From assembly GCF_003018235.1 (NCBI RefSeq), contig NZ_CP027437.1: a stretch of DNA of 64,000 nucleotides, one strand, 5' to 3'. Positions 44,629 to 57,726 of the stretch are shown in pieces. The notes under the pieces are model-generated. The model did not search any database. It saw only the letters and a list, made by a program, of their open reading frames with translations, and was not told the DNA's origin. This stretch comes from Escherichia coli (lineage in GTDB: Bacteria > Pseudomonadota > Gammaproteobacteria > Enterobacterales > Enterobacteriaceae). The stretch's first letter is position 1. Each line of letters starts with the position of its first letter. The translations under genes and the position numbers were made by a program.

Positions 44629-47220
44629 ATGCATCAATCTGGTTCTGTTTCTCTTTGTCGTTCCGCAATATCTGTTCTGGTGGCTACAGCGTTATATTCA
44701 CCCATAGCATTGGCATCAACAGTTGAGTATGGTGAGACAGTTGATGGTGTTGTCCTGGAAAAAGATATCCAGCTGGTTTATGGGACCGCCAATAATACGA
44801 AAATCAATCCTGGCGGAGAACAGCATATTAAAGAATTTGGTATAAGTAGTAATACTGAAATTAACGGCGGGTATCAGTACATTGAAATGAATGGCACCGC
44901 AGAATACTCAGTATTAAATGATGGTTATCAAATTGTTCAAATGGGTGGTGCGGCAAACCAGACTACCCTCAATAATGGTGTGCTACAGGTTTATGGCGCA
45001 GCGAATGATACTACCATTAAAGGCGGGCGCTTAATTATTGAAAAAGATGGGATTACCGTCTTTGCCGCTATCGAAAAGGGAGGATTACTGGAGGTTAAAG
45101 AGGGGGGGTTAGCATTTGCGGTAGATCAGAAAGCCGGCGGTGCTATTAAAACAACCACGCGGGCCATGGAGGTATTCGGAACAAACCGTCTCGGTCAGTT
45201 CGATATCAAGGATGGTATTGCTAATAATATGTTGTTGGAAAACGGCGGAAGTTTGCGAGTTGAAGAAAATGACTTCGCTTATAATACCACTGTGGATAAT
45301 GGCGGCTTACTGGAGGTTATGGATGGCGGGACTGCAACTGGCGTTGATAAAAAAGCAGGCGGAAAATTAATTGTCTCAACGAATGCGCTGGAAGTGAGTG
45401 GTACAAACAGTAAAGGCCAATTTAGTATAAAAGATGGTGTGTCCAAAAATTATGAACTGGATGATGGTTCCGGGCTCATTGTTATGGAGGACACGCAGGC
45501 CATTGACACTATCCTTGATGAGCATGCCACTATGCAATCGCTGGGAAAGGATACTGGTACGAGAGTGCAGGCAAATGCGGTATATGATCTCGGTCGATCA
45601 GATCAGAATGGAAGTATCACGTATTCCTCTAAAGCCATCTCTGAAAATATGGTTATCAACAATGGCCGCGCTAATGTCTGGGCTGGCACAATGGTTAACG
45701 TTTCAGTCAGAGGGAATGATGGCATTCTTGAGGTCATGAAGCCGCAAATAAATTATGCACCCGCTATGTTGGTGGGTAAGGTAGTGGTTTCTGAGGGCGC
45801 TTCTTTTAGAACGCATGGTGCCGTGGATACCAGCAAAGCGGATGTTTCGCTCGAAAATAGCGCATGGACCATCATTGCCGATATCACTACGACGAACCAA
45901 AACACTCGCCTCAACTTAGCCAACCTTGCGATGTCTGGCGCAAATGTGATTATGATGGCTGAGCCAGTGACTCGTTCATCTGTGACGGCAAGTGCGGAAA
46001 ATTTCACTACGTTGACCACCAATACCCTATCGGGAAACGGCAATTTTTATATGCGTACCGATATGGCTAATCATCAGAGCGATCAGCTCAACGTCACCGG
46101 TCAGGCAACAGGTGATTTCAAAATATTCGTTACGGACACCGGTGCCAGCCCGGCAGCAGGTGATAGCCTTACACTGGTAACAACGGGCGGCGGTGATGCT
46201 GCATTTACGTTGGGCAATGCCGGAGGCGTTGTTGATATCGGTACGTATGAATATACCTTGCTGGATAATGGCAACCATAGCTGGAGCCTCGCAGAGAATC
46301 GCGCGCAAATTACCCCTTCAACCACTGATGTGCTGAATATGGCGGCAGCACAACCGCTGGTATTTGATGCAGAACTGGACACCGTGCGTGAGCGTATTGG
46401 TAGCGTAAAAGGCGTTAATTACGATACGGCGATGTGGAGTTCGGCAATTAACACCCGCAACAACGTGACCACTGATGCGGGAGCTGGCTTTGAGCAAACA
46501 TTGACCGGGCTGACGCTCGGTATCGATAGCCGTTTCTCCCGTGAAGAAAGCAGCACAATTCGCGGCTTGTTCTTTGGTTACTCTCATTCTGATATTGGTT
46601 TTGATCGCGGCGGCAAAGGTAATATCGATAGCTATACCCTGGGGGCTTATGCTGGTTGGGAGCATCAGAACGGTGCCTATGTTGATGGGGTGGTGAAAGT
46701 TGACCGTTTTGCCAACACTATCCATGGCAAGATGAGTAATGGGGCAACAGCGTTTGGCGATTACAGTAGTAACGGCGCGGGTGCTCATGTCGAGAGCGGG
46801 TTCCGTTGGGTTGACGGATTGTGGAGTGTTAGACCCTATCTGGCCTTTACCGGCTTTACCACAGATGGTCAGGACTACACGTTATCAAACGGCATGCGCG
46901 CGGATGTGGGAAATACCCGCATATTACGCGCTGAAGCGGGAACAGCGGTAAGCTATCACATGGACCTGCAAAACGGTACGACGCTGGAACCCTGGCTGAA
47001 AGCCGCCGTACGTCAGGAATACGCCGATTCTAACCAGGTGAAAGTTAATGACGATGGCAAATTTAATAATGATGTGGCTGGAACCCGTGGCGTTTATCAG
47101 GCTGGGATAAGGTCATCGTTTACCCCGACGTTAAGCGGTCATTTGTCTGTCAGCTATGGCAATGGCGCAGGGGTAGAATCACCGTGGAATACTCAGGCGG
47201 GTGTGGTCTGGTCGTTCTGA
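44629..47220 (+). CDS. yejO: Intact autotransporter YejO (passenger domain plus C-terminal beta-barrel)
   Basis: 863 aa with a signal peptide, repetitive passenger domain and autotransporter beta-domain ending ...GVVWSF. It is not IS-disrupted as in K-12. Confidence 0.8.
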   Translation: MHQSGSVSLCRSAISVLVATALYSPIALASTVEYGETVDGVVLEKDIQLVYGTANNTKINPGGEQHIKEFGISSNTEINGGYQYIEMNGTAEYSVLNDGYQIVQMGGAANQTTLNNGVLQVYGAANDTTIKGGRLIIEKDGITVFAAIEKGGLLEVKEGGLAFAVDQKAGGAIKTTTRAMEVFGTNRLGQFDIKDGIANNMLLENGGSLRVEENDFAYNTTVDNGGLLEVMDGGTATGVDKKAGGKLIVSTNALEVSGTNSKGQFSIKDGVSKNYELDDGSGLIVMEDTQAIDTILDEHATMQSLGKDTGTRVQANAVYDLGRSDQNGSITYSSKAISENMVINNGRANVWAGTMVNVSVRGNDGILEVMKPQINYAPAMLVGKVVVSEGASFRTHGAVDTSKADVSLENSAWTIIADITTTNQNTRLNLANLAMSGANVIMMAEPVTRSSVTASAENFTTLTTNTLSGNGNFYMRTDMANHQSDQLNVTGQATGDFKIFVTDTGASPAAGDSLTLVTTGGGDAAFTLGNAGGVVDIGTYEYTLLDNGNHSWSLAENRAQITPSTTDVLNMAAAQPLVFDAELDTVRERIGSVKGVNYDTAMWSSAINTRNNVTTDAGAGFEQTLTGLTLGIDSRFSREESSTIRGLFFGYSHSDIGFDRGGKGNIDSYTLGAYAGWEHQNGAYVDGVVKVDRFANTIHGKMSNGATAFGDYSSNGAGAHVESGFRWVDGLWSVRPYLAFTGFTTDGQDYTLSNGMRADVGNTRILRAEAGTAVSYHMDLQNGTTLEPWLKAAVRQEYADSNQVKVNDDGKFNNDVAGTRGVYQAGIRSSFTPTLSGHLSVSYGNGAGVESPWNTQAGVVWSF

Positions 47221-47314: not shown

Positions 47315-47377
47315 GGATTTTTGCACGAGAGTAGTTTAATTGAGTATGTAACTACATGATTTAAAATAATTTGTCTA

Positions 47378-47620: not shown

Positions 47621-47902
47621 TTACCGCCGTAACCGCTCCGGCTTCTTCCAGTGGTAGGTAATTTTTTCTTTCTCCCGATACATCTCCACGCGGCGCTTGT
47701 AGGCCAGCATTTCAAGAACGCGGATCCGTATGTCGCGCATATCCACATCATTAAGCTGGATACCATCACGGCGCATCACCTCAGCAACCACACACGCATA
47801 ATTTTCGGCGGTCACGCAGTCCGGCTGCGTAGCCTGTTCGTCAGCCTGCTGGCTGATTCCGGCAACTCGGCGGATTAATCGCAGTAGTTCGGCTTCTGTC
47901 AT
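47621..47902 (-). CDS. Hypothetical 93-aa island cargo protein
   Basis: ORF only; I recognise no domain. It is the leftmost gene of the island, downstream of the capsid gene. Confidence 0.4.
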   Translation of the reverse strand: MTEAELLRLIRRVAGISQQADEQATQPDCVTAENYACVVAEVMRRDGIQLNDVDMRDIRIRVLEMLAYKRRVEMYREKEKITYHWKKPERLRR

Positions 47903-48043
47903 TGTGCCCCCTCGCGCTGGTTAAGAAAACAAGCTCAGATTTTTTGTAAAGAATCTGTCACGCTAAAAGATGTCGAACAAAAAACAATCACCTTCATCAT
48001 CTTTTTTACATAAAAACAATTAAAAACAATAATTTACATACAT

Positions 48044-48141
48044 GATGATGATGGCGATAAAATCATAAAAATGCGCTTTTTTCCGCGCCGACCCGCCCCG
48101 TGGACAGGCCCACCCCACCAGGAGGACCCGCAAAAAAGGCG
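48044..48141. repeat. Copy 1 of a roughly 100-bp island-internal direct repeat (TGAT-N9-ATCA dyad ... ccgcgccgacccgccccgtgga...accaggaggaccc)
   Basis: About 80% identical to 50594..50690. Each copy sits just past the terminator of one minus-strand gene and upstream of the next. Confidence 0.7.
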
Positions 48142-48169
48142 GCATATTTGCCGCCCTGTAAACTGTGTA

Positions 48170-50065
48170 TCAGCCGGAAGCCGTACCGCTCGATTTGACC
48201 ATGCCGCGATAGTCCAGCGCGGCCACACCGGCATCAATACGAACCTTCCAGGCGACACCGTCAACGATGAAGCCTTCCTGCTGTTCAAGGTAAGGCTCGT
48301 CATTACCATCAAGATAAGCCACCTCGATTGTGTCCGTTCCCTGTGCTGAAAGCATGTACCATTGATTCACACTAACATCATCCAGACGAGGATCGACAAT
48401 AATATCCAGTAGCTTGTGATACGGGTTAAATATGCCGCTGTTTTTATCGGCCCCGAAAGGTGCGGTTGAATTAATCATTTGCAACGCGCGATCTTCCAGT
48501 GCTGCCGGAACTAACAGGAATTTAGGTGCAATGTTCAGCACCTCGCCGTTTTTATCTTTCTGTATGCGCATAGCGTGACGTGCTGCACTAAGCCCCGGCG
48601 TCGTCATGCCAAGATCGATAAGGTTGTTGTGTTTTTTATCAAACAAGGCCACACCATCAGACAGCTTGCCGTTTCCTGTAAGTACCAGATTAACCAGATT
48701 GCCAACCGTTCTGGCTGCTGCACGCCCCATAGCCATTGGCACGGTAGACAACTGATCAAGGTCATCATTGATTATCGCCTGGCGGGTAATACTGAAAATA
48801 TTCCCGTATGTAGCCAGCGCGATTGGCTCACCGCGATCGCTGGTGGTGATGTATTTATATTCTGCCCCTTCCGGCACTTTGTTTAATGTTGAAAAACCAT
48901 TCAGGCCAACGCGGCGGGCTTCACGGAAGTTTGACAGAGAACCTTTTTTAGTCCACTGGCGGAATGTTTCGCCGCTGTGCTCCCAGCCTGCCAGCACTGA
49001 TTTTTCAGCGCCACCAGCCAGGATGTAAGTAAAATCGCTGCTGCTGTGAGTGAATGCCGCATTAACAATCTGCGAACGCGTGCTGTAGCTGCCTGTGCTT
49101 ATGCCACGATGGGTTAATGATGCCTGTGCCATATCGAAAAGGCTCATCATGGCGTAAGGATTGCCGCGTTCGGCCTGTTCGTGACCAAGACGTGCGTTAA
49201 GCCCCTGACGCATGGCATCGCCGGTTATGTTGCCGTTATCCGTATACGCGTAGTAAAGATTTGCGGGGGTGTTTTTGTTGGTGGGTGTCGATTCCTTGCC
49301 CATAGCCAATAAAAGGCGTTCGCGCGCATCCTCAACGCTACAACCTGCGTCTGCCAGGCAGTTAATAGCCAGGTCGTTATATTTCCCGTTGAACGTGCCA
49401 AACAATTCGCGAATGCCGTTTAGTCGTTCCTGTTCGCCGCTGGCTTTGTTCTGGTTGATCATGTTTTTGATACTTTCCGGCATATTTGAAAAATCTCCGA
49501 TTCGTTTTGATTCAATTCTGGCCATTGCTGTAATCGCGGGTATAACCTCATCTGCGAAGCCGTTAGCCTTACACTCATTGCCATCCATCCAGGTTTCCGC
49601 CTCCATCATGGCGGTGATTTCCTGTTTGCTTTTTCCCGTTCTTCCGGCGTAGGTTTCCGCCATCGTGTCGCCCAGCTTGTCCATCAGGTCAGCAAAGCGG
49701 CGAACGTCGCCCGACACGCCAGAAGTAACACCACGGGGGGCATGTATCATCATCATTGCGTTAGCGGGCATCACGATGTGATCGCCACACATGGCAATAA
49801 ACGAGGCCATAGAAGCCGCTATGCCTTCAATGTGTACGATTTTTTTCGCCGGATGATTTTTCAGGGCGTTATAGATAGCCAGCCCCTGAAAGATGTCGCC
49901 GCCTGGTGAATGGATACGCAAATGGATTTCAGACACGTCACCACACGCGCTTATCTGGTCGGTTAATGTTGACGCCTGTACACCGTAACCGCCTATTTCG
50001 TCATAAATGCGAACGTGAAGGGCGTCGGCTTTTGCCTGTATGCTGTACCAGGATTTCATAGCCAT
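48170..50065 (-). CDS. Prohead protease (ClpP/S49-like) fused to an HK97-fold major capsid protein
   Basis: 631 aa. The N-terminal roughly 200 aa have the ClpP-type motif HSPGGDIF and a Ser/His context. The C-terminal roughly 400 aa resemble HK97-family major capsid proteins. A terminator hairpin ggcggcaaatatgccgcc+T6 follows the stop. Confidence 0.7.
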   Translation of the reverse strand: MAMKSWYSIQAKADALHVRIYDEIGGYGVQASTLTDQISACGDVSEIHLRIHSPGGDIFQGLAIYNALKNHPAKKIVHIEGIAASMASFIAMCGDHIVMPANAMMMIHAPRGVTSGVSGDVRRFADLMDKLGDTMAETYAGRTGKSKQEITAMMEAETWMDGNECKANGFADEVIPAITAMARIESKRIGDFSNMPESIKNMINQNKASGEQERLNGIRELFGTFNGKYNDLAINCLADAGCSVEDARERLLLAMGKESTPTNKNTPANLYYAYTDNGNITGDAMRQGLNARLGHEQAERGNPYAMMSLFDMAQASLTHRGISTGSYSTRSQIVNAAFTHSSSDFTYILAGGAEKSVLAGWEHSGETFRQWTKKGSLSNFREARRVGLNGFSTLNKVPEGAEYKYITTSDRGEPIALATYGNIFSITRQAIINDDLDQLSTVPMAMGRAAARTVGNLVNLVLTGNGKLSDGVALFDKKHNNLIDLGMTTPGLSAARHAMRIQKDKNGEVLNIAPKFLLVPAALEDRALQMINSTAPFGADKNSGIFNPYHKLLDIIVDPRLDDVSVNQWYMLSAQGTDTIEVAYLDGNDEPYLEQQEGFIVDGVAWKVRIDAGVAALDYRGMVKSSGTASG

Positions 50066-50250
50066 GCCCCTAACGTGTGCCCATACCAGTACTCTACCGC
50101 GCTGCGTGCAATTTGCCCTTTGGTCGGTACTGGCATTCCTGGGTGATTTTCCCTTATGAACTGCTGATAGCGTTCAATCTTCTCCATCGTTCCGGCGTCT
50201 ATGTGCACTGTTGCGCTTTTATCCGGTTTTCTGGTGTTGTTCTCTGGCAT
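50056..50250 (-). CDS. Hypothetical 64-aa protein translationally coupled to the capsid gene (MPENNTRKPD start)
   Basis: A strong GGAGG RBS lies 7 nt upstream of the ATG at 50250. It overlaps the capsid start by 10 nt. The six-frame ORF extends to 50283. Confidence 0.45.
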   Translation of the reverse strand: MPENNTRKPDKSATVHIDAGTMEKIERYQQFIRENHPGMPVPTKGQIARSAVEYWYGHTLGAWL

Positions 50251-50482: not shown

Positions 50483-50593
50483 TGCCTGTTTTTTTTGTAA
50501 ATATTTTCGGGAATGTTCCAGTGGTGAACAAAAAACAACCATAATCGACACTGAAATTTTTATCAGCCAAATATATCAATAAGTTATGTTAGT

Positions 50594-50690
50594 GGTGATG
50601 GTGCCATAAAAATCAAAAAATGCGCCTTTTTCCGCGCCGACCCGCCCCGTGGATGCCCCCACCAACCAGGAGGACCCACAAAAAAGCCGG
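50594..50690. repeat. Copy 2 of the roughly 100-bp direct repeat (TGAT-N12-ATCA dyad ... ccgcgccgacccgccccgtgga...accaggaggaccc)
   Basis: See copy 1. It is located after the perC-like terminator and 340 bp upstream of the capsid operon. Confidence 0.7.
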
Positions 50691-50708
50691 ATTGCTCCGG
50701 CTGTGTGC

Positions 50709-50984
50709 TCACTTCTGCGGGTAGTTGCGCCATACTGCTTTACCAATACCAGCTATCCCCATTTGTTTTTCAGTGCGATTAACTGACCTTTTCAGAGCGC
50801 CTAAATCATCCGGCGGCTCCGGTGGCCTCTGTGCCTTCCTGGAACATTCCTGCCGTCGCATTGCCACCTGTGCGCGTTCCTTGTCTGTCTCCACCAGCAT
50901 CATCACTTCACCCCATCGCGCCGCCGCCCTCCTGTAAAATCCTTTCGCCTCGAGTTCCTCCGCTATACGGTCATGTACCATCAT
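50709..50984 (-). CDS. PerC-family transcriptional activator-like protein
   Basis: 91 aa with the N-terminal motif VHDRIAEELEAKGFYRRAAARW, typical of PerC/Pch-like proteins. A terminator hairpin gccggagcaatccggc+T6 follows the stop. Confidence 0.55.
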   Translation of the reverse strand: MMVHDRIAEELEAKGFYRRAAARWGEVMMLVETDKERAQVAMRRQECSRKAQRPPEPPDDLGALKRSVNRTEKQMGIAGIGKAVWRNYPQK

Positions 50985-51994
50985 TCACCACCTCCCGCAG
51001 ATGGCGATAAGCTGGCTTTGCCTCCAAGTGGATTAAACCTTATCGCCTCTGTCAGAAAATCCGGCGCAAAATGCGCGTAAACCATTGTCTGTTGTATGCT
51101 CGCGTGCCCCAGTATCCTTTGCAGTGTGATTATATTCCCCCCGTTCATCATGAAATGTGTCGCGAATGTGTGCCGTAATACGTGGGTGGCCTGGCCTTTT
51201 GGTAAGTCCGGTTTTACTGACTTGATGACCTCCCTGAACTCCAGATAATCCACATCAAACAACTGTCCCTTTTTACCTCTCGTTACAAGTTCCAGAACGT
51301 CATCAGACACCGGAACAGCTCGCGCCCGTCCGTTCTTCGTCTCCGTAAACATTACCTTGTTACTGACTATATTTTCCCGTCGTAGCGTCGATGACTCCCC
51401 ATAACGCGCCCCCGTCGAAAGACACAAAACAGCCAGCGCGAGACAGTCGCCTTTGGCAATATTCAGTAAATGATTAACCTCATCATCACCAAGAAAACTC
51501 ATAGCCTTGTTTGGTGCTTTCAGCTTGCGTAATCCACTCAAAGGGTTTTCACCGTGATACATACCGCATTCGATTAGCCCCCTGAACATTCCTGATATAA
51601 CCGACAAATCACGGTTAACAGTCAACGGACTAAGGCCGCATCCCAGCTTGTCGGCTCTGTATTCCATGAGCATTGCGCGGGTTATGTTGCAGATTCGTGG
51701 ATCCCCCATTTCACGGATAACCTTCATCATGCGCATAAACGATTGTTCGCCGTATTCCTCCGATCTTCCGATAAACTCCATCCATAAGTTAGCCAGATCA
51801 GATAACAGGCGAATATCTGCGGCGCGTGACTCCCAGGGCTTATTATGACAATGAAGCAGTATGTATTTTTCGTAATCACGGGCTTTTGTCTGCGAGGGAA
51901 AAATCTTTCTTATCCGTCGCCCGTAAGCGCCATTTGGCCTTACGTCAACCAGCCAGCGACCATCCTCACACTTCCTTATCGCCATGCTCCACAC
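50981..51994 (-). CDS. Internal tyrosine recombinase (phage integrase family)
   Basis: 337 aa with a C-terminal catalytic region HVLRHTFAT...HASIQQTMVYAHF (H-x-x-R ... Y). Overlapping start and stop with flanking genes. Confidence 0.75.
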   Translation of the reverse strand: MWSMAIRKCEDGRWLVDVRPNGAYGRRIRKIFPSQTKARDYEKYILLHCHNKPWESRAADIRLLSDLANLWMEFIGRSEEYGEQSFMRMMKVIREMGDPRICNITRAMLMEYRADKLGCGLSPLTVNRDLSVISGMFRGLIECGMYHGENPLSGLRKLKAPNKAMSFLGDDEVNHLLNIAKGDCLALAVLCLSTGARYGESSTLRRENIVSNKVMFTETKNGRARAVPVSDDVLELVTRGKKGQLFDVDYLEFREVIKSVKPDLPKGQATHVLRHTFATHFMMNGGNIITLQRILGHASIQQTMVYAHFAPDFLTEAIRFNPLGGKASLSPSAGGGE

Positions 51995-52234: not shown

Positions 52235-52430
52235 ACTCCTCACTTTTACTCCTCACTTTTTGTTATTCCTCGCCTGCTCCTCACCTGTTTTTTTTGCTTC
52301 TGTAATGCGTTGTTTTGCAATGTATTTTTTATTCCTCACTTTTTGACCTATATACAGGTGAGAAAGTGAGGAGTAGCGCTGATTTTTTGTTAAATTACTC
52401 GCTACCCTCACTTTTACTCCTCACTTTTTA
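52235..52430. repeat. Iteron array (CCTCACTTTTT, at least 6 direct copies and 1 inverted) - candidate origin of replication
   Basis: Copies at 52237, 52249, 52280 (variant), 52333, 52405, 52417 and an inverted gtgaggag at 52361. They lie immediately 3' of the rep gene, AT-rich, as in SaPI/PICI origins. Confidence 0.7.
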
Positions 52431-53828
52431 CAGTGGGTGCACATCATCGCCATCAATAGCGATTACGCCGTCACCTTCCAGCTTGTACAGCCAGCGCCGG
52501 AAATTTTTCATCTCATACCCCAGCTTTTTCATATCGTCGCGGAGAAGGGCGATAGTGCACGCCTCCCCGTGTGCTGTCCTCGTTCTGATGCACTGCCATA
52601 GCGCGGCGTGATTCTCCGTCTTGTTTCCGGCCTCCTCGATGCGCTCCAGTTCAACGGGTGGGCGCGGTTTATCCACAACCACCAGCGACGTGATTAACTC
52701 CCCGTCAGCGTCGGTAAAAAGCTCCACCACACGTAAATCGTATGCGGCCTCTTTCAGTTCCTCCGCGTCCTTCATTTTGGTGCAGGAGATAACCAGGGCT
52801 TCACAGTCCGCACCTTCACGGCGAATACGGTATTCAGCGTCCAGAGATGCACGAAATGCACTGGAACCACGCGCCCCTTTCGTCTCATCCTTGCCGGAAT
52901 GGTGAACCACCAGCACCGTGGCCCCTGTGCGTCGTTTCAGTTCGTCACATCCACGGATAAACGCCCCCATGTCACGGGAATCATTTTCATCATTGCCGCC
53001 AAAGCAACGCGCCAGCGTATCCAGAATAATCATGCGTACAGGTTTACCCGTTTCCCGCTCCACCTGGCTGGCTGCGATAACCATTTCATCAACATCAAGC
53101 GGGGCCGCCGGAAAAATGGGACGGTTTACCAGATACAGATTTTTCACCTGCTCACCGTGCACAACCTCCCAGGCTTTTACACGACGTGGAACGCCGATAC
53201 CGCCTTCACCAACCACATAGAGAACCGCACCATGTGCAACCCTGCGGCCTCCCCAGTAGCGACCTGTGGAAACGTGACACGCCCACGATCCGGCAAGGAA
53301 TGATTTATAGGAACCGCTCGCCCCGTATATGCTGCATAGCGATACCGCCGGAATAATTCCCTTAACCACGTAATCAAGTTGCGTGTCGTATCCGGCAGAA
53401 CCAATGCTCATCGGTAGTTTGGTTTTCCGCTGGTGGCTTTTTTCTTCCTCCTGCGCTTTACCGCGCTCCCGTTCCAGATATTCGCGCCAGTTCTCCCGCT
53501 TCTGGCTGTGCATCCCATCTGGGTAATAATTCGCATCCCGTACACCTGCTGCCGCCAGCTTTTGCGCTATGGCATTAATGCTCGATGGCTTGATATGGCC
53601 TGCCCTGTACAGACGGACGCAATAGCGGCCCTCGTCGATGATTCTCAGGTCTGGCAGTTCAGCCAGTTGATCATCAGCCAGCACAACGGGAGGCACATTA
53701 TCGCCAGCAAGTCGCCCGTCCTGCTCCTGCCACTGCTTCGCGTGTGCCCAGGCATCACTACCCGCAAAAATAATGACTTCTGTCATTTTGTCGTAAGGCT
53801 GTTTTCTTAAGTTCGGTGCGCTCTTCAT
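52428..53828 (-). CDS. Replication protein: RecA/DnaB-fold (RepA-like) AAA ATPase with an N-terminal extension
   Basis: 466 aa with Walker A GASGSYKS and Walker B MIILDTLAR, consistent with the RepA/primase-associated helicase-loader family of satellite elements. Confidence 0.7.
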   Translation of the reverse strand: MKSAPNLRKQPYDKMTEVIIFAGSDAWAHAKQWQEQDGRLAGDNVPPVVLADDQLAELPDLRIIDEGRYCVRLYRAGHIKPSSINAIAQKLAAAGVRDANYYPDGMHSQKRENWREYLERERGKAQEEEKSHQRKTKLPMSIGSAGYDTQLDYVVKGIIPAVSLCSIYGASGSYKSFLAGSWACHVSTGRYWGGRRVAHGAVLYVVGEGGIGVPRRVKAWEVVHGEQVKNLYLVNRPIFPAAPLDVDEMVIAASQVERETGKPVRMIILDTLARCFGGNDENDSRDMGAFIRGCDELKRRTGATVLVVHHSGKDETKGARGSSAFRASLDAEYRIRREGADCEALVISCTKMKDAEELKEAAYDLRVVELFTDADGELITSLVVVDKPRPPVELERIEEAGNKTENHAALWQCIRTRTAHGEACTIALLRDDMKKLGYEMKNFRRWLYKLEGDGVIAIDGDDVHPL

Positions 53829-54137: not shown

Positions 54138-54419
54138 TTATTCGTCGTTCTGAATAAAACGTTGTTCTCTTATTTCAGAAAGTATCCTGTAAACATTCTT
54201 ATCACTTACCACTTGATGATAATCATCATCCTCAATAAAACACATCAGCGCCTTATTACGGATATATATTTCTCTGGAAAGAAACTGTATCGCCGCGACT
54301 GCCCTTTCTTCTGTAATTCCGTTCATTGACTCACGTTCAATAATAATATTAAGTGCGGCGGATGCGTCTTCCAGTTCAATAAGGTAAGCAGCGAGGTTAT
54401 TTTTTATTCCATTAGACAT
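54138..54419 (-). CDS. Hypothetical 93-aa acidic protein
   Basis: ORF in the operon upstream of rep. Confidence 0.45.
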   Translation of the reverse strand: MSNGIKNNLAAYLIELEDASAALNIIIERESMNGITEERAVAAIQFLSREIYIRNKALMCFIEDDDYHQVVSDKNVYRILSEIREQRFIQNDE

Positions 54420-54615
54420 GGCTCACCCCCTGACAGATTTTTGCAGCGAATACAGCAACACAACCGGACGGGCAAAGGTTACGCGCTTCGCGTTCCGTCC
54501 AGGCGGTTACGTGGATGATTTGATGGTCTGACGCGCCAAAGGCAATAAAGCGCCAGGTGAATTTATTCAGGTTGTGCGAGTCCCGCCCTTGCGGGTGTGT
54601 GATATGATTTAACAT
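54412..54615 (-). CDS. Hypothetical 67-aa protein (MLNHITHPQGRD...); the real gene inside the 353-aa six-frame ORF
   Basis: ATG at 54615 with a GAGGT RBS 6 nt upstream. The rest of the 54412..55473 ORF runs antisense through a promoter region and other genes and is implausible. Confidence 0.5.
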   Translation of the reverse strand: MLNHITHPQGRDSHNLNKFTWRFIAFGASDHQIIHVTAWTEREARNLCPSGCVAVFAAKICQGVSHV

Positions 54616-54712
54616 AGCTACCTCGATACTATTGCTATCGTTGGTGGTTAGAAGCCTGTGGGTGTTAGCGGCACCTACGGGCTTCGCAGTTTCTGAACCT
54701 TGAACACTCAAG

Positions 54713-54794
54713 GTGTAAGACACAACATAAAACAACAGTGTCTTACACGTCAACCCTTTAAAATAGTTTTTTTTCGTGTATATTGTCTTACACC
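54713..54794. promoter_or_regulatory. Divergent promoter/operator region with three GTGTCTTACAC sites (one inverted)
   Basis: gtgtaagacac at 54713, gtgtcttacac at 54739 and tgtcttacacc at 54784. They lie between the minus-strand 67-aa gene and the plus-strand 61-aa gene. Confidence 0.6.
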
Positions 54795-54814
54795 AAAAAC
54801 ATGAGGGGTTAGAC

Positions 54815-55000
54815 ATGGCAACAGGTCCAAAGAATGCAAAATCACAATCTGTAACTGCACGTATTGCCCATGAAATTATTGAAGGCATGGAAAACGTGAA
54901 AGAAGATGGCGAAAGTACAGGGCAGTTTATAAGCGCAGCCATGCGTGGCGAGATCAAACGCCGCCAACGGAAAAAAACCAAAGAATCAGATAAGGAATAA
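54815..55000 (+). CDS. Small 61-aa basic protein (MATGPKNAKSQS...), candidate repressor/regulator of the switch region
   Basis: ATG at 54815 preceded by a GAGGGG RBS. The six-frame ORF begins at an upstream GTG at 54776, inside operator site 3. Confidence 0.45.
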   Translation: MATGPKNAKSQSVTARIAHEIIEGMENVKEDGESTGQFISAAMRGEIKRRQRKKTKESDKE

Positions 55001-55003
55001 CTT

Positions 55004-55147
55004 ATGCAGCAAGTACTATACTGGCTTGGCTCTTTGTTTTTATTTGCTTTCCTCCTGGGAAATTGCATCAGCAATGAACACGTCAGTAATGAGCGTGTAT
55101 GCAGGAGTGATGAAAAAAAGATTCCACGCCTCATATACAATGATTGA
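55004..55147 (+). CDS. Candidate 47-aa hydrophobic peptide (MQQVLYWLGSLFLFAFLLGNC...)
   Basis: ATG 4 nt after the upstream stop, with an AAGGAA RBS. It has a single predicted TM helix. It is below the 60-aa ORF cut-off, and a competing 68-aa ORF lies in another frame at 54945..55151. Confidence 0.25.
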   Translation: MQQVLYWLGSLFLFAFLLGNCISNEHVSNERVCRSDEKKIPRLIYND

Positions 55148-55477
55148 TTAGCTCGTGCAGCACTAAAGCAACGCAAGGCCAAAGAGCAGGAATAGCCCAC
55201 CAGCAAGCCAGCGCACTGATCACATTGCCCACCAGCCGCAAATGTGGCATTGTTGGCTATGCTCATGCGTTGGGGATAACGTGTAGCTTGTGTCGAGGGG
55301 CCACCGTAGCGGGTGGCCTTTGTTTTGCCTGTTATCCGGCAATTGTGGCGCTTCGCCACACGGTTGATATAATTCCCCTGCACTGATCCATTTTTTTCGC
55401 AGCAGGTTAATTGTTCGCAAGGGCGCTCCGGCAACGGGGCGCTTTTTGTTATGTTCATCGCGTTACGCCTCACACCA

Positions 55478-55684
55478 TTACGCAGCCGTTCCGCGCGCTT
55501 CTTCCTCGCGCTCTTTCAGCCAGGCCAGCACTTCATCTTCATACCAGCCAACACGACGCAGACCGATTTTGAAGCCTTTCGGGAATTTTCCGGCGTTGAT
55601 CATGTCCTGTAGCGAACTGTCCGCCTTGATGCGAAGAATATTTTTTACTTCCTGACGGGTGAGTATTTTTCTGATTACTTCCAT
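55478..55684 (-). CDS. alpA: AlpA-family phage/island transcriptional regulator (MerR-like HTH)
   Basis: 68 aa; ...LRIKADSSLQDMINAGKFPKGFKIGLRRVGWYEDEVLAWL... matches the AlpA/Xis-like HTH pattern. Confidence 0.7.
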   Translation of the reverse strand: MEVIRKILTRQEVKNILRIKADSSLQDMINAGKFPKGFKIGLRRVGWYEDEVLAWLKEREEEARGTAA

Positions 55685-56189: not shown

Positions 56190-57449
56190 TTATACCGCAC
56201 GGATACCCCTTTTACCACCAGCAAGGGTAACGCCCGTTGCCGCTGCCTCAACAAATTCCCCCCACCAGCGCATCAGCACAATGCGTTTTTCCAGGTAGTT
56301 ACTGCGGTTGTAGGCTCTCCTTACTTCGTTGGTGTCCACGTGGGCCAGTGCGGCCTCGATTACGTCCGGCTCGAATCCTTCCTCGTTTGCTGCTGTGCTG
56401 AATATGGCGCGTAATCCATGAGACACCAGCACGCCAGCGAACCCCATGCGCCGTAATGCTGCGTTGGCGGTCTGGCTGTTCATCGGCTGGCGTGGGTCTT
56501 TCAGGCTCGGGAAAACATGCTCGCGGTGGTGGCTGATTGGTTTCATGGCCTCCAGCACTGCCATAGCCTGACCGCAAAGCGGGATAACGTGATCACGTCG
56601 CATCTTCATACGTCCGGCTGGTATCGTCCATTGTTGCTCGTCCAGGTCGATTTCTTCCCAGCGTGCTGACGATGCCTCAACAGGACGGGTTACGGTAAGT
56701 AGCTGCCACTCAATCAGTAGTCTTGTCTGCCGTTCTGTTGCCGATACGGATAAAGCCCGCATAAGCTCCGGTAGCTGCTCGGGGCGGATTGTTGGCATAT
56801 GTTTTTTTACTGGGGTGGGGAAGGCCTTGCGCACGTTTGTAGCCGGATTGGTATCAATCATCCCGCTGTTGGCGGCGTAATCCATAACTTCATTGATGCG
56901 CTGTAAAACCCGCTTGAGCGTTTCCAGGTTGCCGCGTTCCTTGATGGGGGTGAGTATCTCCACGAACCTGCGGGCGGTGAGGGTGTCTACTGGCGTGTCA
57001 CCGATGAACGGGAATACATATTTCTCCAGCGATCTCCATATGTCTTTAATTGTGTTGGGTGCAAGATTCTGGCTGATTTTCACCTGGTACCATGCCGCTG
57101 CTACATTTTCGAACGTGTTGCCCTGTCTCCGTTCCTCTGCTTCGCGTTTTCGTCGCTCGTGTTCCTGTGGGTCGGTGCCGGAAGAAATTAACGTCCTGTA
57201 CTCGCTACGGCGTTTTCTGGCATCAGCCAAGGAAACATCATCAAGCGATCCAAAACTCAGCAATATTCTTTTTTTGTCCAATGGGCGGTAGTAGGAAAAT
57301 CGCCAGAGTTTTGATCCAGACGGTTTGACCAGGAGAAAAAGCCCTCCGCCGTCCTGTAGGGTGTACTCCTTTTCCGCTGGTCTGGCTGCTTTGATCTGCA
57401 CTGTGGTTAATGGGGTTGTTTTTCTCGCCATATGTCTATGATTCCACAC
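56190..57449 (-). CDS. int: P4-type tyrosine integrase (N-terminal DUF4102 arm-binding domain)
   Basis: 419 aa. The N-terminus LTTVQIKAARPAEKEYTLQDGGGLFLLVKPSGSKLWRFSY is characteristic of P4/CP4-57-type integrases. C-terminal HGLR...Y catalytic residues. Adjacent to the tRNA. Confidence 0.85.
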   Translation of the reverse strand: MWNHRHMARKTTPLTTVQIKAARPAEKEYTLQDGGGLFLLVKPSGSKLWRFSYYRPLDKKRILLSFGSLDDVSLADARKRRSEYRTLISSGTDPQEHERRKREAEERRQGNTFENVAAAWYQVKISQNLAPNTIKDIWRSLEKYVFPFIGDTPVDTLTARRFVEILTPIKERGNLETLKRVLQRINEVMDYAANSGMIDTNPATNVRKAFPTPVKKHMPTIRPEQLPELMRALSVSATERQTRLLIEWQLLTVTRPVEASSARWEEIDLDEQQWTIPAGRMKMRRDHVIPLCGQAMAVLEAMKPISHHREHVFPSLKDPRQPMNSQTANAALRRMGFAGVLVSHGLRAIFSTAANEEGFEPDVIEAALAHVDTNEVRRAYNRSNYLEKRIVLMRWWGEFVEAAATGVTLAGGKRGIRAV

Positions 57450-57649: not shown

Positions 57650-57726
57650 TGGTCGGCACGAGAGGATTTGAACCTCCGACCCCCGACACCCCATGACGGT
57701 GCGCTACCAGGCTGCGCTACGTGCCG
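57650..57726 (-). tRNA. proL: tRNA-Pro (GGG)
   Basis: Plus strand is the exact reverse complement of CGGCACGUAGCGCAGCCUGGUAGCGCACCGUCAUGGGGUGUCGGGGGUCGGAGGUUCAAAUCCUCUCGUGCCGACCA. Confidence 0.95.

What the first reader, a model, noticed from the sequence alone, without database searches (positions are those of the whole stretch)
48170..50250. Single protease-major-capsid fusion as the only morphogenetic gene of the island
The 631-aa product joins a ClpP/S49-type prohead protease domain (HSPGGDIF...) to an HK97-fold capsid domain. No portal, terminase, scaffold or head-tail connector genes are present. Capsid-forming PICIs normally carry a whole head module. A lone protease-MCP fusion, plus a 64-aa coupled partner, suggests one of two things. 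It may form small capsids using helper portal and terminase, or it may act as a dominant-negative capsid decoy that interferes with helper assembly.
Basis: inference. Interest (0 to 1): 0.7.

Follow-up and report, generated by a model that had tools for sequence, protein, structure and literature searches.

The report
Satellite island's own fused capsid gene
The gene is a real, intact protease-plus-capsid fusion carried by a 10-kb phage satellite (PICI) of E. coli; it copies the head protein of the satellite's helper phages. A lone capsid gene is a documented feature of such satellites, so this is a new member of a known kind whose precise job is still untested.

Summary
ORF 48170-50065 (-) encodes 631 aa: a ClpP-like protease with an intact Ser-His-Asp triad, a helical linker, and an HK97-fold capsid domain. 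The capsid fold is supported by an AlphaFold model plus Foldseek. No portal, terminase or connector gene lies anywhere in the window.

It is not unusual. The protein belongs to a curated family, NF045540 (881 bits). That fusion is the normal head protein of lambdoid phages such as mEp460, cdtI, Gifsy-2 and VT1-Sakai.

The island is a 10.3-kb Gram-negative PICI at tRNA-Pro. The literature says a lone capsid gene is the commonest late gene in such PICIs (21 of 29 reference elements) and records PICIs with a CLP_protease gene.

- The satellite copies form their own lineage, 51% identical to phage copies.
- They are under purifying selection as strong as in phages (dN/dS 0.05-0.19).
- They lack the 30-45-residue linker that every phage copy has.
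- They are always preceded by a small coupled ORF and flanked by two helper-type cos sites.
- Relatives sit inside helper prophages.

Most likely it is an assembly-competent shell subunit used during helper-dependent packaging. Small capsids or interference remain untested. Interest is modest.

The parts
48170..50065 (-). Protease-linker-major capsid protein fusion gene, 631 aa (629 aa from the ATG at 50059). ClpP-like protease is about residues 18-178, with S85, H108 and D172. Helical scaffold-like segment is about residues 197-257, followed by a disordered stretch at 258-278. The HK97-fold capsid domain is about residues 280-627.
   Evidence: dN/dS is 0.05-0.19.
50056..50250 (-). 64-aa ORF translationally coupled to the fusion by an ATGA overlap. 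Function unknown (PHROG 4934). It is a satellite-specific partner found upstream of every satellite-type fusion examined and absent from the phage loci.
   Evidence: No Pfam or PDB match.
47975..48142 (-). cos-like copy A, between the fusion and the 93-aa ORF. The cosN-like core is at 48078-48102. It is 84-85% identical to the region just upstream of TerS in VT1-Sakai and long-tailed Stx phages.
50526..50690 (-). cos-like copy B, between perC and the 64-aa ORF. The cosN-like core at 50627-50651 is identical to that of copy A. The flanking cosB-like part resembles CP-1639 and other PICIs.
47621..47902 (-). 93-aa terminal PICI gene (PHROG 1561, function unknown). It is 87% identical to the last gene of the model PICI EcCICFT073.
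50709..50984 (-). PerC-family transcriptional activator, followed by a hairpin terminator at 50685-50702.
50981..51994 (-). Second tyrosine recombinase (Int_N plus Phage_integrase) in the late zone.
   Evidence: The literature notes extra integrases in PICI late zones.
52428..53828 (-). RepA/AAA_25 replication helicase. Iteron-like repeats at 52238-52429 just downstream are a probable ori.
   Evidence: family D2.
55478..55684 (-). AlpA-type regulator.
56190..57449 (-). Main PICI integrase, next to the attachment site.
57650..57726 (-). tRNA-Pro(GGG), the integration target. A 9-nt core, GCACGAGAG, occurs at 57656-57664 and again at 47323-47331. This bounds an island of about 10.33 kb.

Best explanation
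The gene encodes the satellite's own version of its helper phage's head shell protein. One polypeptide carries a ClpP-like maturation protease, a helical scaffold-like linker and an HK97-fold major capsid domain.

The gene sits in the late zone of a 10.3-kb Gram-negative phage-inducible chromosomal island (PICI) integrated at tRNA-Pro. With the coupled 64-aa ORF, two helper-type cos sites and the 93-aa terminal gene it forms the island's packaging module.

Shown here:
- The identity of the protein: domains, catalytic triad and fold.
- The PICI context.
- The helper family: lambdoid phages of the mEp460, cdtI, Gifsy-2 and VT1-Sakai type, whose only capsid protein is the same fusion.
- A separate, long-lived satellite lineage of the gene under phage-like purifying selection.
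- A satellite-specific shortening of the linker.

Inferred mechanism:
- During helper late growth the protein is made and assembles, alone or mixed with helper subunits, on the helper portal into procapsids.
- It trims off its own protease and scaffold part.
- The helper terminase fills these shells from the island's cos sites.

Because protease, scaffold and shell are in one chain, this single gene supplies three of the head functions. Only portal, terminase, connectors and tail need be borrowed. Whether the shells are helper-sized or small is open. The shortened internal linker is compatible with a smaller shell but does not show it.
For: Identity:
- NF045540 at 881 bits against a cutoff of 475; Pfam domains.
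- ClpP alignment with the Ser-His-Asp triad, invariant in relatives.
- HK97 fold by AF2 plus Foldseek and by profile against PDB capsids.

Helper family:
- Full-length tblastn hits of 50-52% identity lie next to portal genes in Stx, VT1-Sakai, mEp460, cdtI and Gifsy-2 phages.
- mEp460 has no other capsid gene.
- Both island cos copies align with the region upstream of TerS in these phages.
- Sister PICIs carry a TerS that is 65% identical to mEp460 TerS.
- Relatives are embedded in such prophages, inside the helper's own fusion gene or its TerL gene.

PICI membership: integrase, AlpA, RepA plus iterons, about 10.3 kb, tRNA att site, no lysis or tail genes. The late-zone layout parallels EcCICFT073, with the terminal gene 87% identical.

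Functional maintenance:
- dN/dS is 0.05-0.19 between satellite copies in both the protease and capsid domains. This equals the 0.06-0.19 seen between phage copies.
- Full-length copies occur in 142 of 5426 complete E. coli genomes.

Satellite signature:
- The linker is 10-16 residues in all 119 close homologs that span the linker and in 8 of 8 species-level PICI loci.
- It is 29-59 residues in 72 of 72 phage loci.

Precedents: SaPIbov5 Ccm, a capsid homolog, makes small capsids, and PmCI172 carries a capsid homolog and gives small heads.
Against: - No experiment on this gene was found in the papers searched.
- In the model PICI EcCICFT073, deleting the capsid or decoration gene did not relieve interference with lambda. 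[quoted passage not shown] That island is packaged in phage-sized heads.
- No convincing sigma-70 promoter was found upstream of the 64-aa ORF, and a terminator precedes it. How the cassette is expressed is unknown.
- Island size of 10.1-11.1 kb fits both four copies in a helper-sized head and one copy in a small head. It does not discriminate.
- The linker argument for small shells is geometric reasoning only.
Confidence: 0.55

Rival explanations
1. Interference only. The satellite protein co-assembles with helper subunits as a poison or decoy and lowers helper yield. It builds no capsids that the island uses.
For: - At 51% identity to the helper protein, it is close enough for mixed assembly and far enough for misfit.
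- Classical PICIs do interfere with their helpers.
- The satellite-specific linker deletion could disturb co-assembly.
Against: - A decoy needs neither an active protease nor full-length constraint. Yet the triad is invariant, and both domains show dN/dS equal to that of phage genes.
- Deleting the capsid gene of EcCICFT073 did not relieve interference with lambda.
- The gene lies within the cos-bounded packaging module rather than with defence-type cargo.
Confidence: 0.15
2. Redundant captured late gene. It is a spare copy of the helper head gene that can substitute for the helper's. This would be useful when the satellite sits inside and interrupts a helper late gene, but it is dispensable for a tRNA-integrated island like this one.
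For: - Relatives interrupt the helper's own fusion gene at about codon 105-116, or the TerL gene.
- The literature proposes exactly this 'backup copy' role and reports that a PICI capsid knockout was tolerated.
Against: - The satellite lineage is old and distinct: 51% identity to phage copies, with two sub-lineages 63% identical to each other. It is not a recent capture.
- It carries its own conserved partner ORF and a shared linker deletion.
- Strong purifying selection persists in tRNA-integrated islands.
Confidence: 0.2
3. Decaying remnant of a longer head operon with no present function.
For: It is the only head gene left. PICI late zones are known to capture and then lose phage late-gene clusters.
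Against: - The ORF is intact and full length, aligning over residues 10-627 with 6-652 of mEp460.
- The triad is intact.
- dN/dS is 0.05-0.19.
- 142 full-length copies occur among complete E. coli genomes, with the same architecture in Kluyvera, Trabulsiella, Rahnella, Pectobacterium, Buttiauxella and Moellerella.
Confidence: 0.03

Closest known systems
EcCICFT073, the model Gram-negative PICI of E. coli (Fillol-Salom 2018, 2019)
   Same: - Same order of regulatory and replication genes: integrase, AlpA, replication gene.
- Same late zone: PerC, a small ORF overlapping the start of a lone capsid gene, two cos sites, and the same 93-aa terminal gene at 87% identity.
- Helper-type cosN; dependent on helper terminase.
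   Different: - Its capsid gene is a lambda E-type protein of 351 aa with a separate decoration gene. It matches lambda and phi80 helpers and has no protease.
- It carries a 144-aa ORF of the reported RppA length (identity with RppA not tested), which this island lacks.
- Its two cosN sites are inverted and flank that 144-aa ORF. Here they are direct repeats flanking the capsid cassette.
Head protein of mEp460, cdtI, Gifsy-2, VT1-Sakai and CP-1639 lambdoid phages (NCBIfam NF045540)
   Same: Same three-part architecture, same catalytic triad and same capsid domain. Identity is 50-52% over the full length.
   Different: - The phage genes lie between the portal and decoration genes in a full head operon. 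They have a 29-59-residue Pro/Ala/Thr-rich linker.
- The satellite gene stands alone, has a 10-16-residue linker and has a dedicated upstream 64-69-aa ORF.
Helper-embedded PICIs and CLP_protease-bearing PICIs (Mageeney et al. 2023, PMC10111431)
   Same: - Same gene family and satellite type.
- Relatives found here (Kluyvera L016, Rahnella L018) are inserted at the published site C:CLP_protease:110.
- The O157:H7 F3113 relative is inside the helper TerL gene.
   Different: The island in the window is integrated in a chromosomal tRNA-Pro gene using a different integrase. It is not inside a prophage.
SaPIbov5 Ccm (Staphylococcus aureus cos-type satellite)
   Same: A satellite-encoded homolog of the helper major capsid protein in a cos-packaged island. 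It is shown to redirect assembly to small capsids.
   Different: - It comes from an unrelated lineage (Gram-positive).
- Ccm has no fused protease.
- Its function is demonstrated, whereas here nothing is demonstrated.
Capsid-forming PICIs (EcCIEDL933 type)
   Same: Same integrase, AlpA and replication backbone, and a satellite-encoded HK97 capsid protein.
   Different: cf-PICIs also encode protease, portal, connectors, HNH, TerS and TerL, and borrow only tails. None of these is present here apart from the protease domain fused to the capsid protein.

Membership tests
NCBIfam NF045540 ClpP-like prohead protease/major capsid protein fusion | Whole-protein score above the curated cutoff of 475 bits | tested here: met
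   881.4 bits, E 4.5e-265. PGAP gives the same name to the identical gene in SCU-111.
NCBIfam NF045540 ClpP-like prohead protease/major capsid protein fusion | ClpP-type (S14) serine protease domain with a Ser-His-Asp triad | tested here: met
   S85, H108 and D172 align with ClpP catalytic residues. They are invariant in 25 of 25 aligned relatives and read SHD in the window copy. Catalysis itself was not tested.
NCBIfam NF045540 ClpP-like prohead protease/major capsid protein fusion | HK97-fold major capsid domain at the C terminus | tested here: met
   AF2 pLDDT 79.6. Foldseek gives 237 PDB hits at E<=1e-3, with the top hits all HK97-fold capsids or encapsulins. Profile hit to solved Mu GpT-type capsid proteins at 1e-9.
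Gram-negative PICI (classical) | Small island (10-20 kb) at a specific att site with an integrase at one end | tested here: met
   About 10.33 kb between 9-nt cores at 47323-47331 and 57656-57664 in tRNA-Pro. The integrase is at 56190-57449.
Gram-negative PICI (classical) | alpA regulator and own replication gene with adjacent ori, with genes co-oriented | tested here: met
   AlpA at 55478-55684. RepA/AAA_25 at 52428-53828, with iterons at 52238-52429. The recognised genes are on the minus strand.
Gram-negative PICI (classical) | No lysis, tail or full head module; helper cos site or terS for packaging | tested here: met
   No such genes were found. There are two helper-type cos copies.
Gram-negative PICI (classical) | Induction, packaging and transfer by a helper phage; interference with the helper | not testable with these tools
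   Only indirect evidence is available: relatives embedded in helper prophages and cos homology.
Capsid-forming PICI (cf-PICI) | Own portal, head-tail connectors, HNH, TerS and TerL | tested here: not met
   None was detected by Pfam, NCBIfam or PHROG on the island ORFs or by tblastn of mEp460 head genes on the whole window.
P4-like satellite | sid/psu/delta capsid-size and transactivation genes and an alpha primase | tested here: inconclusive
   No such names or domains appear among the PGAP products of the identical island or the Pfam and PHROG hits. No dedicated Sid, Psu or Delta profile search was run on every small ORF.
Rpp-type packaging redirection (EcCICFT073) | Rpp protein of 144-153 aa with a TerS-like winged helix next to cos | tested here: inconclusive
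   No ORF of that size or similarity lies in the late zone. The 93-aa and 64-aa ORFs have no similarity to the EcCICFT073 144-aa ORF and no PDB hit. Only sequence-level comparison was possible.

The most novel reading that the evidence does not exclude
This satellite lineage uses a one-gene capsid kit. The shortened protease-scaffold-capsid fusion, perhaps guided by the coupled 64-aa protein, would by itself build satellite-sized (T=3 or T=4) shells on the helper portal. A 10-11 kb genome bounded by the cos sites would then be packaged into them. That would make these islands an intermediate between classical PICIs, which borrow everything, and capsid-forming PICIs, which borrow only tails. 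The linker length would act as the size determinant.
Probability: 0.2. Interest if true: 0.6.

Novelty: new member of a known kind. Interest (0 to 1): 0.3.

Why it matters
What the capsid genes of Gram-negative PICIs do is an open question. They are the most common late gene in these satellites, yet the one knockout tested showed no phenotype.

This family offers a clean test case:
- The helper group is identifiable, including Shiga-toxin phages of STEC.
- The gene is under strong selection.
- The satellite allele differs from every phage allele by one discrete feature, the missing linker. That feature can be swapped experimentally.

If the fusion redirects capsid size or helper yield, it would bear on the mobilisation of islands and on the output of Stx phages in pathogenic E. 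coli. As it stands, the finding is an ordinary, already annotated component of a known satellite type.

Tried and rejected
1. A full-length AlphaFold run on a 25-sequence alignment gave a confident protease domain but an unusable capsid domain (pLDDT 20-50). A second run on residues 200-631 with 65 more diverse sequences worked.

3. I asked whether the 64-aa ORF is a relic of the helper portal or TerS and whether the 93-aa ORF is a decoration or connector homolog. There was no similarity to any mEp460 head protein. There were no PDB hits and no Pfam hits even at E<=10.
   - By eye, both the 64-aa ORF and the EcCICFT073 68-aa ORF have a strand-helix-helix pattern like ribbon-helix-helix proteins. 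Nothing supports this computationally.

4. I tested whether the 93-aa ORF is an Rpp homolog. It is too short and shows no similarity to the EcCICFT073 144-aa ORF.

5. I first thought the duplicated cos site might be new. Two functional cos sites are already published for EcCICFT073. Only the direct orientation around the capsid cassette differs.

6. The promoter scan gave nothing above the shuffled expectation.

7. An Rfam scan found no P4-type CI/C4 RNA in the island.

8. Island size was considered as a discriminator between small and full-sized heads. It fits both.

9. The chimeric proteins P0207 and P0210 have a satellite N terminus and a phage capsid domain. They come from short metagenome scaffolds and may be assembly artefacts, so they were not used as evidence.
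Full report
**1. The observation**

The minus-strand ORF 48170..50065 encodes 631 aa.
- Pfam places a CLP_protease domain at residues 43-175 (1e-32) and a Phage_capsid_4 domain at 333-625 (3e-54), with a weaker Mu-like gpT match.
- NCBIfam gives 881 bits to NF045540, 'ClpP-like prohead protease/major capsid protein fusion protein' (cutoff 475). It also matches the ClpP-related head maturation protease domain model.
- PHROG 133 and 4523 ('head maturation protease', 'major head and protease protein') agree.
- Against solved structures, the N-terminal part aligns with bacterial ClpP (best E 9e-15). AASM(A/G), MIH(A/Q)P and G(F/L)(A/I)DEV line up, so S85, H108 and D172 correspond to the ClpP triad.

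- A full-length model from a shallow alignment was confident only for the protease.
- A model of residues 200-631 from a 65-sequence alignment reached pLDDT 79.6 and pTM 0.71.
- Foldseek against the PDB returned 237 hits at E<=1e-3. The top hits were all HK97-fold capsids or encapsulins, including LME-1, FCWL1, phiXacJX1, T5, SaPI1, the P4 procapsid and Myxococcus EncA.
- A sequence profile of this part hits solved Mu-GpT-type capsid proteins at 1e-9.
- The model shows three helices at full-length residues about 208-257, a disordered stretch at about 258-278, and then the capsid fold.

The 64-aa partner (50250..50056) has a GGAGG ribosome-binding site. Its stop overlaps the ATG at 50059 as ATGA.

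No other head gene exists in the island or anywhere in the 64-kb window.

**2. What the island is**

The left flank holds ccmF/G/H, narP and an autotransporter. The right flank holds tRNA-Pro(GGG), yejM and yejL. This is the E. coli proL region.

Between a 9-nt core repeated at 47323-47331 and 57656-57664 lie about 10.33 kb. In order, on the minus strand, they carry:
- an integrase and an AlpA-type regulator;
- small ORFs and a DUF4222 protein;
- a RepA/AAA_25 helicase followed by iterons;
- an 86-aa ORF, a second tyrosine recombinase and PerC;
- the 64-aa ORF, the fusion, and a 93-aa ORF.

This is the organisation of a classical Gram-negative PICI.
- The late zone of the model element EcCICFT073 reads PerC, a 68-aa ORF overlapping the capsid start, an E-type capsid gene, a decoration gene, a 137-aa ORF, a 144-aa ORF (the reported length of RppA) and a 93-aa ORF.
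- That last gene is 87% identical to the 93-aa ORF here.
- An almost identical island (98.8%) occurs in one complete genome, E. coli SCU-111. PGAP already names the fusion there.
- Alleles of the cassette at about 89% nucleotide identity occur in 150 of 5426 complete E. coli genomes. Among the sampled hits are O157:H7, O145:H28, O111:H8 and O178:H19 strains.

**3. Where the gene comes from**

tblastn against phage genomes gives 82 full-length matches.
- The best are at 50-52% identity, each adjacent to a portal gene.
- They lie in long-tailed Stx phages, VT1-Sakai, CP-1639, mEp460, mEp213, mEp043, cdtI, Gifsy-2 and others.
- In mEp460 the head operon is TerS, TerL, adaptor, portal, fusion, decoration. 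There is no separate capsid gene.

So the fusion is the ordinary shell protein of that lambdoid group and not a satellite invention.

Protein searches show the satellite copies fall in two sub-lineages: 92-98% and 63-64% identity to the window protein. Both lie in about 10-kb islands with integrase, AlpA, primase or RepA, the small upstream ORF and the 93-aa ORF, at several different att sites.

A species-level scan of GTDB genomes returned 80 loci.
- Eight have the satellite-type protein. They come from Kluyvera (two species), Trabulsiella, Rahnella, Pectobacterium, Buttiauxella, Phytobacter and Moellerella. All show satellite features such as the small upstream ORF, a primase or RepA, an integrase or a TerS-like gene.
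- The 72 others lie beside portal and terminase genes.

**4. Link to the helper**

- The intergenic segment between the fusion and the 93-aa ORF matches, at 84-85%, the segment between Rz and TerS of VT1-Sakai and Stx phages. It matches the right end of mEp460 at 73-76%. This is the phages' cos region.
- Its core, CACGGGGCGGGTCGGCGCGGAAAAA, resembles lambda cosN. The EcCICFT073 copies carry ACGGGGCGGCGACCTCGCGG.
- A second copy lies between perC and the 64-aa ORF. The two direct repeats, 2549 bp apart, bracket the capsid cassette.
- Both copies are present in every satellite relative examined.
- Copy A resembles the Sakai flavour of the cosB-like flank. Copy B resembles the CP-1639 flavour.
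- Two functional cos sites are already known for EcCICFT073. There they are inverted around the 144-aa ORF.
- Sister islands of the 63% lineage carry a DUF1441 protein 65% identical to mEp460 TerS, just after the downstream cos. The window island lacks it.

Relatives are physically embedded in helper prophages.
- In Kluyvera (L016) and Rahnella (L018) the satellite interrupts the helper's own fusion gene at about codon 105-116. This is the published site C:CLP_protease:110.
- In E. coli O157:H7 F3113 it interrupts the helper TerL gene, 3.7 kb from the helper's 659-aa fusion.

**5. Is the gene functional?**

- It is full length relative to the phage proteins.
- dN/dS between satellite copies is 0.05-0.19 over the whole gene and in the protease and capsid domains separately. 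For window versus L007, the values are 0.089 overall, 0.129 for the protease and 0.060 for the capsid domain, at dS 0.49.
- Phage-phage comparisons give 0.06-0.19.
- The catalytic triad is conserved.

**6. A satellite-specific feature**

Satellite and phage proteins differ in the segment between the protease domain and the helical segment.
- Phage proteins have a Pro/Ala/Thr/Gln-rich linker plus part of a helix, 29-59 residues between two invariant anchor positions.
- Satellite proteins have 10-16 residues.
- The split is complete: 119 of 119 close homologs spanning the linker and 8 of 8 species-level satellite loci are short, and 72 of 72 phage loci are long.
- The only short-linker proteins in the phage-query set are two apparent chimeras from short metagenome scaffolds, which may be artefacts.

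Each capsid subunit drags its protease and linker into the procapsid interior. A shorter internal part is what a smaller shell would require. This is geometric reasoning, not evidence.

**7. Mechanism**

The best-supported reading is an assembly-competent, self-processing shell subunit made by the satellite and used in helper-dependent packaging. One gene supplies protease, scaffold-like linker and shell. Portal, terminase, connectors and tail come from the helper.

For:
- identity and conservation of the protein;
- its position inside the cos-bounded packaging module;
- the match between satellite capsid type and helper capsid type. EcCICFT073 carries E plus D for lambda-type helpers, and this family carries the fusion for mEp460- and Sakai-type helpers;
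- the precedents of SaPIbov5 Ccm and PmCI172.

Against:
- Deleting the EcCICFT073 capsid or decoration gene did not relieve interference with lambda. That island uses full-sized heads.
- No promoter for the cassette is evident.

Rivals are interference only, a redundant backup copy, and a decaying remnant. The last is effectively excluded by the selection analysis.

**8. Comparison with what is known, and novelty**

- The protein family is curated.
- The literature states that a lone capsid gene is the commonest late gene of Gram-negative PICIs, present in 21 of 29 reference elements.
- It also notes that extra integrases occur in late zones and that PICIs bearing a CLP_protease gene exist.

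The finding is a new member of a known kind. Three things appear not to be described in the papers I read:
- the complete linker dichotomy;
- the dedicated small upstream ORF;
- the direct cos repeats bracketing the cassette.

These give handles for experiments. Interest is modest, at 0.3.

Noticed in passing
window 47975-48142 and 50526-50690: Two direct copies of a helper-type cos region (about 84% identical to each other, with identical cosN-like cores) bracket the 64-aa ORF plus the fusion. Both copies are conserved in all satellite relatives examined. Their cosB-like flanks resemble different phages (VT1-Sakai versus CP-1639), which might widen helper range. Two cos sites are known in EcCICFT073, but there they are inverted around a 144-aa ORF.
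   Followed up: partly
window protein residues about 203-214 (nt about 49424-49459): All satellite-borne fusion proteins lack the 30-45-residue Pro/Ala/Thr-rich linker present in every phage-borne homolog. The count is 10-16 versus 29-59 residues between invariant anchors. The only overlap is two possibly artefactual chimeras.
   Followed up: yes
L016 3200-16200 (Kluyvera), L018 2600-15800 (Rahnella), L097 9000-19500 (E. coli O157:H7 F3113): Relatives of the island are helper-embedded. They are inserted in the helper prophage's own protease-capsid fusion gene at about codon 105-116, or in its TerL gene. One cell then holds a satellite and a helper copy of the fusion a few kb apart.
   Followed up: yes
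window 50981-51994 and 50709-50984: A second tyrosine recombinase (337 aa) and a PerC-family activator sit in the late zone just upstream of the capsid cassette. The role of the extra recombinase is unknown. PerC homologs of PICIs are reported to activate LEE in some strains.
   Followed up: no
window 50056-50250; L098 463-669: The 64-aa ORF here and the unrelated 68-aa ORF of EcCICFT073 both overlap the start of their capsid gene. By eye, both have a strand-helix-helix pattern reminiscent of ribbon-helix-helix DNA binders. No database support was found.
   Followed up: partly
window 52238-52429: Three copies of CCTCACTTTTACTCCTCACTTTTT, spaced 83-85 bp apart with an inverted copy between them, lie immediately downstream of the RepA gene. 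They look like the island's replication origin iterons.
   Followed up: no
L095 (metagenome scaffold), proteins P0207 and P0210: These chimeric proteins have a satellite-type N terminus (short linker, preceded by the 69-aa ORF) and an mEp460-type capsid domain, followed by phage decoration genes. They are either satellite-helper recombinants or assembly artefacts.
   Followed up: partly
window 54412-55473: The 353-aa minus-strand ORF listed mechanically here is probably not a gene. In the identical island of SCU-111, PGAP annotates small genes in this stretch instead: Icd-like, YlcI/YnfO and a hypothetical on the other strand.
   Followed up: no
window 44629-47220: The autotransporter gene next to the island's left end is an intact 863-aa ORF in the window. 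In SCU-111, which carries the same island, it is annotated as a truncated, frameshifted pseudogene.
   Followed up: no
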